NCBI GenBank assembly: GCA_009777255.1
Contig: WRMG01000001.1
Span: 5,751 to 69,750, forward strand
Direction: 5' to 3'
Source: Oscillospiraceae bacterium
GTDB taxonomy: Bacteria; Bacillota; Clostridia; Oscillospirales; UBA929
DNA length: 64,000 nt
Shown here in pieces: positions 3,621-14,409 of the stretch (positions are counted from its first letter, which is position 1; each line of letters begins with the position of its first letter). Made by a program: the position numbers and the translations under genes. Below the pieces are notes generated by a model. The model searched no databases. It was not told where the DNA came from and saw only the letters and a program-made list of their open reading frames with translations.

Positions 3621-4981
3621 TGTTCCTCACCTTTCGTCTCCGTTTCGGGCTGCGAAACGGGCTCTTTCTTTTTGGTTTTCCTCGGCGCTCTGGGCTTCGG
3701 CGCGGGCGGCGCCAGCTCGGACGCGTTCTCAATCAGGAACTCCGAGCCCTTGAGGCCCAATAAATCGCGCTTGAGCGACCGCTCGGATATGGCTTTGCGT
3801 ATGTCCTTCTCAGGCATGCGGTATCTCTCCGCCAGCTTTGCATACTCGTCGGCCAGCTCCTGCTCCGTGACCGTGAACCCTTCCAGCTCCGCTATCTTTC
3901 TGAACGCCAGATCGCATTTGACATGGCGCTCCGCCGCGCCGCGCTGCTGGCCGCGCAGCTCGTCCATGCTCTGGCCGGTCAGCTGAAGATACTGCTCAAG
4001 CTCAAGCCCCTGCATGGATACGCGGTATTCAAGATCCCGCATAAGCGAATCCAGCTGCTCCTCTACCATAATATCAGGTATAACCGCCTCAAAGCCCTCC
4101 AGCATTTTCTCAAGAACATCGGACTCGAATTTATCCTTTACCTCTGTTTCGCGGCGCTCCAGCACGCGCTTCTTTATATCCTCTTTGAACTCGTCAAGGG
4201 TGTCAAACTCCGACACATCCTTAGCAAACTCGTCGTCCAGCTCCGGCTTTAACGTCCGCTTCGCCTCCCTCACGGTCACTTTGAATACCGCCGGCTTGCC
4301 CGCAAGCTGTTCCGCGTGATATTCCTCGGGGAACGTGACGTTTACGTCGCAGCTATCGCCTGCTTTTTTGCCGATAAGCTGCTCCTCGAACCCGGGTATG
4401 AACTGCCCCGAGCCGATTGTAAGGCTGTGGTTTTCGGCTTTGCCGCCGTCGAACGGGGTGTCGTCAACAAACCCCTCAAAGTCGATAACGGCCGTGTCGC
4501 CGTCTTCCAGCGGCTCCTCGGAGGTCTCCACGCGCGCGTTGCGCGTCCGCAGACGCTCCAGCTCGGCGTTTATGTCCTCGTCGGTACATACGGCCTTGTT
4601 CTTTACCACAGATACGCCCTTATATTCGCCCAGCTTGACCTCGGGTGCCACACGCACGCTCGCGGTAAAGGTGTAGCCGTCCCCGCTGATGGCGGTGATA
4701 TTTATATCGGGGCGCTCGATCGGGTCAAGATTATACTCCGCGACCGCGTCCTCATACGCCGCGGGGAACGATATATCCACCGCGTCCTCGTAAAAGAAGC
4801 TGCCGCCGTACATCTTCTCAATTATTTTGCGCGGCGCTTTTCCGTGCCTGAAGCCCGGCACGTTAATTTTGTGCGCGCTGCGGCGAAACGCCGTTTCGAC
4901 CGCTTTCTCAAACTCCTCGCGCCCGACCGTCACTTCCATTTCTACCATGTCGTTCTCTTTGCGTTCGACCTTGACACTCAT
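3617..4981 (-). CDS. tig: Trigger factor (PPIase chaperone)
   Basis: [16 protein letters not shown] ribosome-binding motif and an FKBP-like middle domain. It lies in tig-clpP-clpX gene order. Confidence 0.95.
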
Positions 4982-12702: not shown

Positions 12703-13589
12703 ATATTAAGAATCTTAACAGGCCGTCCTCGAGGGTTGACGTTATACTTGACACAGACACGTTTAATGAGATAGACGATCAGTTCGCCGTCGCGTATATG
12801 CTTAAAAACGCTGATAAATTAAACGTCAAGGCAATATACGCCGCGCCGTTTCTCAATGAGAAGTCAACAAGCCCAAAGGACGGCATGGAGAAAAGCTATG
12901 ACGAGATACATAAGATACTCGGCCTTATGGGCGCCGATGTGAACGTCTATAAAGGCTCGGAGCGTTTTCTGTCAAGCGAAACACAGCCGGAAAGCTCGCC
13001 CGCGGCGGAGCATCTTGCCCGGCTGGCGATGGATTACAGCCCTGAGAACCCTCTTTACGTCGTCGCTATCGGCGCGATAACGAATATAGCTTCCGCCGTG
13101 CTGATAAACCCGAAAATCGTTGATAACATCGTCGTCGTCTGGCTGGGGGGCAACGCGCTGCACTGGCATGACACAAAGGAATTCAACCTTTTTCAGGACG
13201 TCGCGGCGGCGCGGGTCATATTCGGGTGCGGCGCAGCTTTGATACAGCTGCCCTGTATGGGCGTGGTTTCGGCGTTTACTTTGAGCGAGGCGGATATAAG
13301 GCACTGGCTTTCCGGCAAAAATAAACTCTGCGATTATTTGGCGCAGAGTACCATCGACGAGGCGTCGTCATATGCCGCGGGACGCCCGTGGACGCGCGCC
13401 ATTTGGGACGTTACCGCGGTCGCGTGGCTGATCGACGGCAGGTTCTTAGAGGAACGGCTCGAACACAGCCCCATCCCCGAGTACGATGGGCATTACGCCT
13501 TTGACGGGCGGCGTCATTTTATCAGATATGTCTATCACATCCACAGGGACGCTCTGGCAGAGGATTTGTTCAACAAGCTGACGTCATAG
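12699..13589 (+). CDS. Nucleoside hydrolase (inosine/uridine-preferring family)
   Basis: N-terminal DTDTFNEIDDQFAV aspartate cluster (DxDxxxDD). It overlaps the PRT gene by 4 nt. Confidence 0.85.
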   Translation: MNIKNLNRPSSRVDVILDTDTFNEIDDQFAVAYMLKNADKLNVKAIYAAPFLNEKSTSPKDGMEKSYDEIHKILGLMGADVNVYKGSERFLSSETQPESSPAAEHLARLAMDYSPENPLYVVAIGAITNIASAVLINPKIVDNIVVVWLGGNALHWHDTKEFNLFQDVAAARVIFGCGAALIQLPCMGVVSAFTLSEADIRHWLSGKNKLCDYLAQSTIDEASSYAAGRPWTRAIWDVTAVAWLIDGRFLEERLEHSPIPEYDGHYAFDGRRHFIRYVYHIHRDALAEDLFNKLTS

Positions 13590-13617
13590 GGAGCGAAATA
13601 TTATTCCGAAAAAAAAC

Positions 13618-13645
13618 TTGACATTTTGTAAAACAATGCTATAAT
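13618..13645 (+). promoter_or_regulatory. Near-consensus sigma-A promoter with extended -10
   Basis: TTGACA (13618-13623), a 16-nt spacer, then TGcTATAAT (13637-13645), preceded by an A-tract (aaaaaaaac). Confidence 0.7.
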
Positions 13646-13681
13646 AACATCAATAAGGACTGTTTAATTTAAGTTAAAATA

Positions 13682-13757
13682 TCCGGTCGGCGGGCAACCG
13701 CGCGAGTTTTGGCTTTCAGGGTGGAGAAGCTGTAATCAGGCTTCCCGTCCTTTTTTT
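13682..13757 (+). promoter_or_regulatory. Leader unit 1: conserved 50-nt element plus intrinsic terminator
   Basis: Element spans 13682-13731. The hairpin is ggtggagaagc/gcttcccgtcc (13720-13750, imperfect), followed by T7 at 13751-13757. Confidence 0.5.
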
Positions 13758-13770
13758 ATCTAAATAAATT

Positions 13771-13843
13771 TCCGGTCGGCGGGCAACCGCGCGAGTTTTG
13801 GGCTTTCAGGGTGGAGAAGCTATGCTTCTTCACCCTTATTATT
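13771..13843 (+). promoter_or_regulatory. Leader unit 2: second copy of the element plus terminator/sequestering hairpin next to the RBS
   Basis: Element spans 13771-13821 and is identical to unit 1 except for one extra G. A 12-bp stem gggtggagaagc/gcttcttcaccc (13809-13835, loop tat) is followed by ttattatt, the RBS aaggagg at 13844-13850, and the ATG at 13859. Confidence 0.5.
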
Positions 13844-13858
13844 AAGGAGGTGCAACCC

Positions 13859-14275
13859 ATGTTGTTCTTGACGCTCGAACAATTATCTGTCCCCGAGGCA
13901 CTCGGTATTTCACTGGTCGGCATACTTATCGGTTTCTGCGCGCTGTCACTGCTCATACCAATAATCCGGTTAATCAGCCTGATGGCCGCTAAGCTCCAAA
14001 AGCCTGTAAAGGATGAGATACAGGTTTTGCCCGTTGCCGCGCTGCCGCAGATGACGCCCGCAAAGGGCTCCTTCGGCGACGTTAAGCTCTATGATGTTGA
14101 TGAAAAAACCGCCGCGCTGCTTATCGCTATCGTGGCGGATGAAATCGGCGCGCCGCTTAACGAGCTTCGCTTTATCTCGATTCGTGAAAAACTCGGGAAA
14201 AAATATTCCGAAATAGACGAAAAATTTGAAAGCATCGCCAGCTCCGCTATCGGCGGCGAAAAGATGGGGAGGTAA
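13859..14275 (+). CDS. OadG-like small membrane protein (Na+-pump decarboxylase gamma-subunit family), orphan
   Basis: One N-terminal TM helix, and a C-terminal GDVKLYDVDEKTAALLIAIVADEIGAPLNELRFISI pattern that I recognise from OadG-family proteins of Clostridia. The start was moved to the ATG at 13859, which has a good RBS. Confidence 0.55.
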   Translation: MLFLTLEQLSVPEALGISLVGILIGFCALSLLIPIIRLISLMAAKLQKPVKDEIQVLPVAALPQMTPAKGSFGDVKLYDVDEKTAALLIAIVADEIGAPLNELRFISIREKLGKKYSEIDEKFESIASSAIGGEKMGR

Positions 14276-14280
14276 ATACA

Positions 14281-14409
14281 TTGAACATTGTGATTATAGC
14301 GGTAATCGGTCTGGCTGTCGCGGTTCTGCTCGGCGTTTTGATGTCGCGTATTGACAAAAACATTCATGAAACGAACCAGACCCCCAAAGATCAAAAGAAA
14401 GACAAGTAA
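14281..14409 (+). CDS. Candidate 42-aa single-TM peptide (not in ORF track)
   Basis: A TTG start lies 8 nt after GGGGAGG (14266-14272). Translation is LNIVIIAVIGLAVAVLLGVLMSRIDKNIHETNQTPKDQKKDK: a hydrophobic helix with a charged tail. Confidence 0.35.
   Translation: MNIVIIAVIGLAVAVLLGVLMSRIDKNIHETNQTPKDQKKDK

What the first reader, a model, noticed from the sequence alone, without database searches (positions are those of the whole stretch)
13618..13858. Tandem duplicated 50-nt RNA element, each copy with its own terminator hairpin, behind a consensus promoter: candidate tandem riboswitch/attenuator of unrecognised class
A near-perfect promoter (TTGACA-16-TGcTATAAT) precedes a leader of about 205 nt. 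The leader holds two copies of the same element, at 13682-13731 and 13771-13821, identical except for one extra G. Each copy folds as a hairpin capped by a GCAA tetraloop: CCGG-UCG-GCGG-GCAA-CCGC-(G)-CGA-(GU)-UUGG. That hairpin is followed by CUUUCAGGGUGGAGAAGC. The latter segment forms the 5' arm of a downstream hairpin, but the 3' arms differ between units. Unit 1 uses GCUUCCCGUCC followed by U7. Unit 2 uses GCUUCUUCACCC (12 bp) followed by UUAUUAUU and the RBS. So the sensor-like part is identical while two different expression platforms pair with it. This is what stacked riboswitches or protein-dependent attenuators look like, not a simple recent duplication. From memory I cannot match it to glycine, purine, SAM, TPP, c-di-GMP/AMP, guanidine I-III, ZTP, fluoride, preQ1 or ANTAR substrates. 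The regulated gene is OadG-like (Na+-pump subunit family), so the Na+ (DUF1646 motif) and Li+ (nhaA-I motif) riboswitch classes are the first to test. That link is speculation.
Basis: partly seen in the sequence, partly recalled or inferred. Interest (0 to 1): 0.78.

Follow-up and report, generated by a model that had tools for sequence, protein, structure and literature searches.

The report
Tandem variant sodium riboswitches before oadG-like gene
The leader holds two near-identical copies of a divergent sodium-riboswitch-type RNA, each with its own terminator; this known kind of ion sensor appears here in a sequence variant that standard annotation misses and in a doubled arrangement not yet reported for it.

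Summary
A 12/12 consensus promoter is followed by two about 55-nt copies (13677-13731 and 13766-13821) that differ by one base and one extra G. Each copy is followed by a different terminator, then the RBS and an OadG-family gene.

The element belongs to a recognised fold. Both copies align end to end with Rfam RF03071 (Na+-I riboswitch, DUF1646 motif), but at only 20.1 and 19.2 bits against a threshold of 40.5. Each terminator consumes that loop and the P2 3' arm, as in the validated Na+ ON switches.

The score is low because the middle pair at the base of P1 is C-G, where Na+-I has a "strictly conserved" U-A, and because the P1 bulge is G.

A metagenome scan found 27 more distinct elements with this variant core, about half of them from one termite-gut metagenome. 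They show P1 covariation, 25 of 27 have the same terminator layout, and none reaches the Rfam threshold. They precede ABC exporter, nhaA, cation/H+ antiporter, rnfC and birA genes.

Only this species carries a same-strand doublet.

Verdict: a pseudo-cooperative tandem of variant Na+-I-type riboswitches. Ligand binding is untested.

The parts
13618..13645 (+). Sigma-70-type promoter: -35 TTGACA (13618-13623), 16-nt spacer ending in TGc, -10 TATAAT (13640-13645). The transcription start is inferred at about 13652.
   Evidence: 12 of 12 consensus matches with TG before the -10. Sequence read.
13683..13731 (+). Aptamer 1, a variant Na+-I type. It consists of the conserved CCGG, then P1 (13687-13705: UCG-GCGG-GCAA-CCGC-[G bulge]-CGA), a linker GUUUU, and P2 (13711-13731: GGCUUUC-AGGGUG-GAgAAGCU). 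The C13688-G13704 pair replaces the U-A pair of canonical Na+-I.
   Evidence: RF03071 model positions 1-55, 20.1 bits, E = 0.05; 85.9 bits with R1; 73.1 bits with the family model R2; the aptamer-only fold gives P1 plus P2.
13719..13757 (+). Terminator 1. The 5' arm GGGUGG-a-GAAGC is the P2 loop plus the P2 3' arm. The loop is UGUAAUCAG and the 3' arm is GCUUCCCGUCC (to 13750). A U7 tract follows at 13751-13757.
   Evidence: terminator-like site. MFE of unit 1 is P1 plus this hairpin.: -13.7 kcal/mol against -3.6 for P2.
13772..13821 (+). Aptamer 2, identical to aptamer 1 except for the extra G at 13800 in the linker. P1 is 13776-13794, P2 is 13801-13821, and the variant pair is C13777-G13793.
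   Evidence: RF03071 model positions 1-55, 19.2 bits, E = 0.086; repeat and alignment; 89.3 bits with R1.
13808..13843 (+). Terminator 2. It is a 13-pair hairpin, AGGGUGGAGAAGC-UAU-GCUUCUUCACCCU (13808-13836), followed by the U-rich tail UAUUAUU (13837-13843). Its 5' arm is again the P2 loop plus the P2 3' arm.
   Evidence: 13 pairs, 7 of them G-C.: -20.8 kcal/mol; the z-score of unit 2 is -4.29; in a second assembly of the species, 13830 U is C, turning the one G.U pair into G-C.
13844..13861 (+). Ribosome-binding site AAGGAGG (13844-13850) and start codon ATG (13859-13861) of the regulated gene.
   Evidence: Sequence read; in the terminator-state fold, GGAGG is predicted to pair weakly with the freed CUUUC (13803-13807).
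13859..14275 (+). Regulated gene 1: a stand-alone OadG-family membrane protein of 138 aa. No oadA, oadB or biotin-carrier gene lies in the 64-kb window.
   Evidence: PF04277, 31.3 bits against a cut-off of 27. NCBI names it 'OadG family protein [Oscillospiraceae bacterium]', MCL2080483.1; tblastn with OadA, OadB and BCCP finds nothing in the window.
14281..14409 (+). Probable regulated gene 2: a 42-aa single-helix membrane peptide, followed at once by a convergent gene.
   Evidence: ORF list; called as a gene in the ENA assembly; homologous peptides follow the OadG-like gene in L083 and sit directly behind a variant riboswitch in L111.

Best explanation
The leader (about 13652-13858) carries two complete, independent riboswitches of a variant Na+-I (DUF1646-motif) type in series.

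Each aptamer is a P1 hairpin plus a weak P2 hairpin whose loop is AGGGUG. When the aptamer is not held together by its ion, the P2 loop and P2 3' arm pair with downstream sequence instead. That forms a much stronger intrinsic terminator: T1 ends at about 13757 and T2 at about 13843. Transcription then stops.

When cytoplasmic Na+ is high, the ion-bound aptamer keeps P2 closed long enough for RNA polymerase to pass. A full-length mRNA needs read-through at both units. Output therefore scales roughly with the product of the two occupancies. This gives a lower basal level and a steeper, more switch-like response, which is pseudo-cooperative control.

The product is a stand-alone OadG-family membrane protein plus a 42-aa membrane peptide, presumably accessory parts of a sodium-pumping or sodium-handling system.

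Shown by computation: the promoter, the two aptamer copies, the mutually exclusive P2 and terminator pairings and their energies, the similarity to RF03071, the existence of a covarying family with the same layout, and its sodium-related gene neighbourhood.

Inferred: Na+ as the ligand, the ON direction, independence of the two units, and the steeper dose response.
For: Similarity to the known class:
- RF03071 is the only riboswitch family hit in 13560-13900. It matches full length (model positions 1-55) on both copies at E = 0.05 and 0.086, counted over all 4227 families.
- The same model hits all 15 relatives tested, at 19.2-31.7 bits.
- The four experimentally validated Na+-I sequences share the 5' CGGU, the outer U-A and inner G-C pairs of lower P1, the G after P1, and the GGGUG loop. 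The loop includes the G50/G51 positions whose mutation abolishes Na+ response.

Switch layout:
- P2 is -3.6 kcal/mol, T1 is -13.7 and T2 is -20.8.
- The MFE of each unit is P1 plus terminator.
- As in the validated kefB riboswitch, the terminator forms only at the expense of P2.

Family:
- 27 further distinct elements have the same variant core.
- P1 is 100% paired, with G-C to A-U double changes in 9 cells. 0 of 500 shuffles reach the observed covariation score.
- 27 of the 29 elements, counting the two window copies, have a terminator that pairs the GGGUG loop and ends in a U-rich tail.
- All 27 relatives lie 5' of a gene on the same strand.

Gene context of the 27 relatives:
- 16 ABC-2-type ATPase plus permease
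- 3 cation/H+ antiporters
- 3 birA (with a bioY-like gene)
- 1 nhaA
- 1 rnfC-rnfD
- 1 small membrane peptide
- 2 unknown
The nhaA-like antiporter and oadG associations are published for Na+-I.

Population data:
- Three independent assemblies of the species carry the identical doublet.
- The single leader polymorphism changes a terminator G.U pair to G-C.
Against: - Both copies score about 20 bits below Rfam's gathering threshold, and no family member reaches it.
- The pair equivalent to U9-A32 of the validated 66 kefB RNA is C-G in every member. A32 is called strictly conserved, and nucleotides 6-9, which include U9, are among those whose in-line cleavage Na+ suppresses. The P1 bulge is G or GU instead of UU, and the A after P1 is U.
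- In the related nhaA-I fold a single base change altered ion specificity, so Na+ cannot be assumed.
- P2 covariation is thin, with one double change. My scan pattern fixed much of P2 and lower P1, so invariance there is partly ascertainment.
- The two window copies are not independent evidence.
- Terminator 2 has an interrupted U tract.
- No experiment of any kind bears on this RNA.
Confidence: 0.72

Rival explanations
1. The fold and switch are the same, but the ligand differs. The C-G pair and G bulge at the base of P1 would retune the pocket, so that this subfamily senses another monovalent cation (Li+, K+, NH4+) or a very different Na+ range.
For: - The changed positions lie in the region that defines ion classes in this fold family. 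Na+-I and Li+-I differ in lower P1 and the P2 loop.
- One substitution broadened the specificity of Na+-II.
- All 29 members carry the same changes.
- None reaches the Na+-I threshold.
Against: - The P2 loop is the Na+-I loop, not the Li+-I/Na+-II loop GYCGGGCCGC.
- The nhaA-I model gives no hit at E up to 10.
- The regulon overlaps that published for Na+-I: nhaA-like antiporters and OadG.
- C-G for U-A preserves the helix.
Confidence: 0.12
2. The doublet is a young, selectively neutral duplication. Only one unit matters, or they are redundant, and there is no pseudo-cooperative function.
For: - The two aptamers are identical even in the P1 stem-loop, which varies freely across the family. This points to recent common origin or gene conversion.
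- No other same-strand doublet was found among 27 relatives.
Against: - The two terminators differ in loop, 3' arm and tail, yet both remain fully complementary to the same aptamer segment.
- The doublet is unchanged in three assemblies that differ by 0.6-0.8% elsewhere.
- The one polymorphism strengthens T2.
Confidence: 0.1
3. It is a ligand-independent or protein-dependent attenuator. Two terminators would be modulated by a binding protein, by a transcription factor such as an antiterminator, or by nothing.
For: - No binding data exist.
- In a homologous two-gene module (L083) regulation appears to be by a LytTR-type protein, not by RNA.
Against: - The family conserves unpaired nucleotides (CCGG, AGGGUG) as aptamers do.
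- It matches a validated ion-riboswitch model.
- It is linked to many non-homologous sodium-related genes, with no common regulator gene nearby.
Confidence: 0.04
4. It is a REP-like or mobile repeat with no leader function.
For: It is a repeated sequence with hairpins.
Against: - There are only two copies in 64 kb, both inside one leader.
- All 27 relatives lie just upstream of a gene on the same strand. For the 26 whose start codon could be placed it lies about 20-110 nt downstream of the aptamer hit; the last contig breaks off before the start could be placed.
Confidence: 0.01

Closest known systems
Na+-I riboswitch (DUF1646 motif, Rfam RF03071; White et al. 2022, PMC9337991)
   Same: - Two-hairpin aptamer of about 50 nt.
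- 5' CGGU.
- Outer U-A and inner G-C pairs of lower P1, and a bulge on the 3' side of P1.
- G after P1, then a U-rich unstructured linker.
- P2 with loop NGGGUG.
- An intrinsic terminator whose 5' arm is the P2 loop plus the P2 3' arm, so ligand binding means read-through (ON).
- Association with nhaA-like and other cation/H+ antiporters and with oadG.
   Different: - The middle pair of lower P1 is C-G instead of the 'strictly conserved' U-A.
- The bulge is G or GU instead of UU.
- U replaces the A after the P1-closing G.
- There is an extra bulged G in the P2 3' arm.
- Scores are 19-32 bits against a gathering score of 40.5.
- New gene partners appear: a specific ABC-2 exporter, rnfC, birA with a bioY-like gene, and a 42-aa peptide.
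- Two copies sit in series here.
Li+-I / Na+-II riboswitches (nhaA-I motif; White et al. 2022, PMC9646797)
   Same: - The same general P1 plus P2 architecture.
- Ion sensing.
- Occasional oadG association.
- Li+-I occurs as natural doublets and one triplet.
- It sets the precedent that small changes in lower P1 or the P2 loop change ion specificity.
   Different: - Their signatures, GGGUG...CAGGUU (or GGGGU...AGGUU) at P1 and GYCGGGCCGC in the P2 loop, are absent here.
- The Rfam nhaA-I model gives no hit at E up to 10.
Pseudo-cooperative tandem riboswitches (for example tandem TPP, Li+-I and c-di-GMP doublets; Sherlock et al. 2022, PMC9481103)
   Same: Two complete riboswitches of one class sit on the same strand upstream of one ORF, each with its own terminator.
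   Different: Na+-I is not among the classes listed with same-class doublets in that census (Table 1 and text). Here the aptamers are identical but the expression platforms differ.
Na+-I / c-di-AMP tandem logic gate (White et al. 2022)
   Same: A Na+-I-type ON switch with its own terminator is followed by a second riboswitch with its own terminator.
   Different: Here the second unit is another copy of the same aptamer, not a c-di-AMP OFF switch. The expected behaviour is a sharpened single-input response, not two-input logic.

Membership tests
Na+-I riboswitch (DUF1646 motif, RF03071) | Architecture: P1 hairpin with a 3'-side bulge, an unstructured linker, and a P2 hairpin with a 6-nt loop. 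| tested here: met
   Full-length alignment to model positions 1-55 for both copies. The aptamer-only MFE gives P1 plus P2. Across the family, P1 is 100% paired and P2 93.5%.
Na+-I riboswitch (DUF1646 motif, RF03071) | Conserved P2 loop GGGUG; G50 and G51 of 66 kefB are required for the Na+ response. | tested here: met
   AGGGUG at 13718-13723 and 13808-13813. It is present in all 29 family rows, but GGGTG was fixed by the scan pattern. The requirement comes from PMC9337991.
Na+-I riboswitch (DUF1646 motif, RF03071) | Conserved base of P1: GG-UUG paired with CAA-GA, with A32 and A33 'strictly conserved'. | tested here: not met
   The sequence here is GG-UCG ... CGA-GU. The pair equivalent to U9-A32 is C13688-G13704 (C13777-G13793 in copy 2). 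The bulge is G, not UU, and the A after P1 is U. The change is compensatory, so the helix is kept.
Na+-I riboswitch (DUF1646 motif, RF03071) | Score at or above Rfam's gathering threshold of 40.5 bits. | tested here: not met
   20.1 and 19.2 bits. There is no hit in the window at gathering. Fifteen relatives score 19.2-31.7 bits, and twelve further relatives produce no hit at gathering.
Na+-I riboswitch (DUF1646 motif, RF03071) | Expression platform: an intrinsic terminator that forms at the expense of P2 (genetic ON switch). | tested here: met
   The 5' arms of T1 and T2 are the P2 loop plus the P2 3' arm. 27 of 29 family members have the same layout. The validated kefB and Dehalobacter constructs have this layout too.
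Na+-I riboswitch (DUF1646 motif, RF03071) | Association with genes of sodium transport or use. | tested here: met
   OAD_gamma in the window. Relatives precede NhaA, CPA antiporter, RnfC, ABC-2 exporter and BirA genes. oadG and nhaA-like genes are published partners.
Na+-I riboswitch (DUF1646 motif, RF03071) | [quoted passage not shown] | not testable with these tools
   This needs in-line probing or transcription assays.
Li+-I / Na+-II riboswitch (nhaA-I motif) | Match to the nhaA-I covariance model. | tested here: not met
   No nhaA-I hit at E up to 10 in 13560-13900 or in 15 relatives.
Li+-I / Na+-II riboswitch (nhaA-I motif) | Signature sequences at the base of P1 (GGGUG..CAGGUU or GGGGU..AGGUU) and in the P2 loop (GYCGGGCCGC). 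| tested here: not met
   Direct comparison with the three published constructs. Neither signature is present in 13680-13825.
Pseudo-cooperative tandem riboswitch | Two complete riboswitches of the same class on the same strand, upstream of one ORF. | tested here: met
   No ORF or promoter-like site was found between the units.
Pseudo-cooperative tandem riboswitch | Each aptamer has its own expression platform. | tested here: met
   T1 is 13719-13757 and T2 is 13808-13843.
Pseudo-cooperative tandem riboswitch | A steeper dose-response curve than a single unit gives. | not testable with these tools
   This needs transcription or reporter titrations with one unit against two.

The most novel reading that the evidence does not exclude
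The C-G / G-bulge subfamily, at least 29 distinct members so far and about half of them from one higher-termite hindgut metagenome, is a separate functional class of the Na+-I fold. It would have changed ion specificity or a shifted working range. On this reading the window's doublet is the first natural same-class 'digital' switch of that class. Its regulon (ABC-2 exporter, rnf, nhaA, CPA antiporters, birA with a bioY-like gene, the OadG-like protein and a 42-aa peptide) would define a cation-response programme not yet described.
Probability: 0.15. Interest if true: 0.75.

Novelty: new variant of a known kind. Interest (0 to 1): 0.5.

Why it matters
- It shows that Rfam's Na+-I model, at its gathering threshold, misses a whole, internally consistent branch of the family. 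None of 29 elements passes. Sodium-responsive regulation in gut Clostridia is therefore under-annotated.
- The branch carries a compensatory change at a position reported as strictly conserved. That makes it a natural test of which atoms of lower P1 matter for Na+ recognition, in a fold where single changes are known to switch ion specificity.
- It adds candidate members to the sodium regulon: a specific ABC-2 exporter, rnf, birA with a bioY-like gene, a stand-alone OadG-like protein and a conserved 42-aa membrane peptide.
- It is a same-class doublet for a riboswitch type that a 2022 census did not list with such doublets. This gives a simple system for testing pseudo-cooperative sensing of an ion present at millimolar levels.

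Tried and rejected
- **Rfam at gathering threshold on the whole window:** no hit at all. The match appears only in E-value mode on the leader.
- **Conservation upstream of orthologous genes:** I fetched 80 genome loci with OadG homologues plus 4 contigs from protein look-ups. There the gene usually sits inside an oadA-oadG-(biotin carrier)-oadB operon. A regex, Rfam at gathering on 19 loci, the two-copy model R1 and the family model R2 found no related RNA. So the element is not tied to oadG orthologues.
- **Closest stand-alone OadG-like module (L083):** it has LytTR-type direct repeats upstream and no riboswitch.
- **Scan pattern allowing canonical U-A:** the few T/A hits (L087, L093, L120) do not reach the RF03071 gathering threshold, and L088/L147 match the R1 model only over the P2 segment. 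Two groups of repeated hits (CA type, 14 contigs; TG type, 7 contigs) are conserved non-RNA sequence. L092 and L143 are weak, probably false.
- **Li+-I / Na+-II membership:** rejected.
- **Published alignments:** the supplementary alignments of the DUF1646 motif from Weinberg 2017 are not held. I could not check whether any C-G variants were among the published 308 representatives.
- **Sample identifiers:** a text search for them gave nothing useful. The origin of Ga0082212 was established indirectly.
- **oadA, oadB and biotin-carrier genes in the window:** none found.
Full report
**1. The observation**

The region reads as the first stage described it.

- **Promoter.** A sigma-70-type promoter with 12 of 12 consensus positions lies at 13618-13645, with TG one base upstream of the -10.
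- **Repeat.** Two copies of one sequence follow, at 13677-13731 and 13766-13821. The repeat finder reports 36 nt at 97% and 25 nt at 96% identity. Aligned, the copies differ at one flanking base and by one extra G at 13800. The 20-nt core occurs exactly twice in the 64 kb; none is expected by chance.
- **Terminators.** Each copy is followed by a different hairpin that ends in a U-rich run. T1 is 13719-13750 plus U7. T2 is 13808-13836 plus UAUUAUU.
- **Gene.** Then come the RBS AAGGAGG (13844-13850) and the ATG at 13859. The ORF is 138 codons and matches Pfam OAD_gamma at 31.3 bits against a cut-off of 27. NCBI names it 'OadG family protein [Oscillospiraceae bacterium]'.
- **End of the unit.** A 42-codon ORF follows at 14281-14409, then a convergent gene.

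**2. What the repeated unit is**

No Rfam family reaches its gathering score anywhere in the window. In E-value mode on 13560-13900, both copies align over the whole of model RF03071, the Na+ riboswitch aptamer (DUF1646 motif). The scores are 20.1 bits (E = 0.05) and 19.2 bits (E = 0.086), against a gathering score of 40.5. The E-values are counted over all 4227 families. No other riboswitch family appears up to E = 10.

The segment CUUUCAGGGUGGAGAAGC is not only the 5' arm of the terminators. With the two preceding G's it forms the P2 hairpin GGCUUUC-AGGGUG-GAgAAGCU. Folded without downstream sequence, each copy gives P1 plus P2.

I compared the copies with the four experimentally validated Na+-I sequences printed in the supplement of White et al. 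2022.

Shared features:
- the 5' CGGU
- the outer U-A and inner G-C pairs at the base of P1
- a bulge on the 3' side of P1
- the G after P1
- a U-rich linker
- the GGGUG loop

The loop positions equivalent to G50 and G51, whose mutation abolishes the Na+ response, are present.

Differences:
- The middle pair at the base of P1 is C-G (13688-13704 and 13777-13793). All four validated RNAs have U-A there, and the paper calls the A (A32) strictly conserved.
- The bulge is G, not UU.
- The base after the P1-closing G is U, not A.
- P2 has one extra bulged G.

The C-G for U-A change is compensatory, so the helix is kept.

**3. The switch**

- P2 alone is worth -3.6 kcal/mol, T1 is -13.7 and T2 is -20.8.
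- With downstream sequence included, the MFE of each unit is P1 plus terminator, at -27.5 and -34.4 kcal/mol. The z-score of unit 2 is -4.29.
- Both terminators use the P2 loop and the P2 3' arm as their 5' arm, so P2 and terminator exclude each other. White et al. describe this arrangement for the kefB riboswitch and showed it to be a Na+-dependent ON switch. The published constructs show the same overlap.
- The 3' arms of T1 and T2 differ in sequence, loop and tail, but both complement the same aptamer segment.

**4. Is it conserved, and where?**

*Upstream of orthologues: no.* I fetched 80 genome loci that encode relatives of the OadG-like protein and four more contigs by protein look-up. 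In the contigs whose gene calls were returned, the gene lies inside an oadA-oadG-(biotin carrier)-oadB operon. Rfam at gathering on 19 loci, a model of the two window copies (R1) and later a family model (R2) found no related RNA in about 670 kb. The window's gene is a stand-alone paralogue. The window holds no oadA, oadB or biotin-carrier gene.

*Elsewhere: yes.* One metagenome scan used a pattern that allowed either U-A or C-G at the variable P1 pair: CGGTYG N8-26 CRAG N2-10 GGYTTNNNGGGTGNNNAARC. It returned 65 loci. R1 then picked out 27 distinct elements in 26 loci, with E-values from 1e-13 to 3e-5. It also picked out L100, a 1021-bp contig 99.2% identical to the window that carries the same doublet. 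All 27 have the C-G pair.

What the aligned family shows:
- Conservation goes beyond what the pattern forced. This includes the C before CGG, GC after UCG, the G or GU bulge, the U-rich linker, the A before GGGUG and the G after it.
- The upper P1 stem and loop vary freely in sequence and length.
- P1 is paired in 100% of cells, with G-C to A-U double changes at two pairs (9 cells).
- P2 is paired in 93.5% of cells, with one double change.
- 0 of 500 shuffles reach the observed covariation score, and slid registers drop to 36-59% paired.
- P2 evidence is limited because the pattern fixed most of P2.
- 27 of the 29 elements, counting the two window copies, have an MFE hairpin that pairs the GGGUG loop with downstream sequence and ends in a U-rich tail.

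Against Rfam, RF03071 hits all 15 relatives tested, full length, at 19.2-31.7 bits. Twelve more relatives give no hit at gathering. The whole branch therefore lies below Rfam's threshold. The nhaA-I (Li+-I / Na+-II) model never appears, and its published signatures are absent.

**5. Gene context of the family**

Every relative lies just 5' of a gene on the same strand.

| Downstream gene | Elements | Detail |
|---|---|---|
| ABC-2/DrrA-type ATPase | 16 | about 299 aa, followed by a permease of about 547 aa |
| Cation/H+ antiporter | 3 | |
| Biotin-protein ligase | 3 | followed by a BioY-like membrane protein |
| NhaA | 1 | |
| RnfC-RnfD | 1 | RnfC at 510 bits |
| 43-aa membrane peptide | 1 | homologous to the window's 42-aa ORF |
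| Unknown | 2 | contigs end too early |

Na+/H+ antiporters, ATP-driven sodium transporters, oxaloacetate decarboxylase and oadG are published partners of Na+-I riboswitches. This makes Na+ the most likely ligand for the variant as well. It does not prove it. In the sister fold, one substitution changed ion specificity, and the classes differ precisely in lower P1 and the P2 loop.

**6. The doublet**

Among the relatives, only this species has two units on one strand. L107 has two on opposite strands, driving divergent genes.

The doublet is identical in three assemblies: the window (an NCBI MAG), an ENA contig at 99.4% identity and a JGI contig at 99.2%. The single difference in the leader is 13830 U to C, which turns the one G.U pair of T2 into G-C.

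The two aptamers are identical even where the family varies, which points to a recent duplication or gene conversion. The terminators have nonetheless diverged while both stay complementary to the aptamer.

The 2022 census of tandem riboswitches lists many classes with same-class doublets, including Li+-I. It does not list Na+-I, which is known only in tandem with c-di-AMP riboswitches. By the logic laid out there, two independent ON switches in series should give a lower basal level and a steeper response.

**7. Verdict**

The leader is a tandem of two variant Na+-I-type riboswitches that control a stand-alone OadG-like protein and, probably, a small membrane peptide.

- I do not file it as a member of RF03071 in the strict sense. 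It fails the score threshold and one defining conserved pair.
- It has the same fold, the same loop, the same expression-platform logic and an overlapping regulon.
- It is best described as a new variant of a known kind.
- Ligand identity, ON direction and pseudo-cooperativity are inferences.

**8. Provenance**

The window is from an Oscillospiraceae MAG. Fourteen of the 27 relatives come from metagenome Ga0082212. Contigs with that prefix belong to MAG Nt197P3bin72. Nt197 is the humus-feeding higher termite Neocapritermes taracua and P3 is a hindgut compartment (PMC7024585). The other JGI sample codes look like termite-gut projects from memory only; I did not verify them.

Noticed in passing
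window 14281-14409 (+); L083 3422-3565; L111 about 3752-3883: A conserved small single-helix membrane peptide of 42-47 aa (shared M..V...IG......L....SR.D...H). It follows the stand-alone OadG-like gene in the window and in L083. In L111 it is the first gene behind a variant riboswitch. The NCBI accession numbering leaves no room for it, so it appears unannotated in the MAG.
   Followed up: partly
L083 2880-2950: A homologous OadG-like plus small-peptide module (47% identity) has no riboswitch. Instead it has several TCTCACA/CTCACA direct repeats just downstream of a LytTR-domain gene. The same module is therefore under protein-based control in another organism.
   Followed up: partly
L107 5566-5623 (-) and 5769-5825 (+): Two variant riboswitches sit back to back on opposite strands. 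One leads into nhaA and the other into the ABC-2 transporter operon.
   Followed up: partly
window 13830 against L001: This is the only leader polymorphism among three assemblies. U to C converts the single G.U pair of terminator 2 into G-C.
   Followed up: yes
window 14047-14050 against L100: The JGI contig lacks 4 nt (GCAG) inside the OadG-like ORF. JGI calls a 63-aa product there. This is either a frameshifted allele or an assembly error.
   Followed up: no
window 13803-13807 with 13846-13850: In the terminator-2 fold the freed 5' arm of P2 (CUUUC) is predicted to pair with the Shine-Dalgarno GGAGG. The helix is weak and rich in G.U pairs. It could add a translational OFF component to unit 2.
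   Followed up: partly
L131, L132, L118 (leaders of cation/H+ antiporter genes): After the riboswitch terminator there is a second strong hairpin plus U run before the start codon. This may be a further regulatory element.
   Followed up: no
L121 9260-9355; L150 731-850: Two family members lack the usual terminator. In L121 the MFE pairs the P2 3' arm with sequence next to the RBS instead, which suggests translational control.
   Followed up: no
L099, L133, L149: A variant riboswitch sits in front of birA, a biotin-protein ligase. In L133 a BioY-like membrane protein follows. This would link sodium sensing to biotinylation, which biotin-dependent Na+-pumping decarboxylases need.
   Followed up: partly
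L140 7924-8018 (-); L013 6849-6959 (+); L099 6-64 and L149 2926-2984: Other Rfam hits at gathering turned up in fetched loci: a NiCo riboswitch, a THF riboswitch and two pemK RNAs. None is related to the finding.
   Followed up: no
L097, L101, L103, L104, L106, L114, L117, L124, L126, L135, L142, L145, L146 and others: Fourteen contigs share a near-identical stretch, CGGTCGGTTCGACGCAAGAGG..GGCTTGAAGGGTGCCAAAAC. It matched the scan pattern by chance and shows no RNA-model hit. It is probably a conserved coding segment.
   Followed up: no
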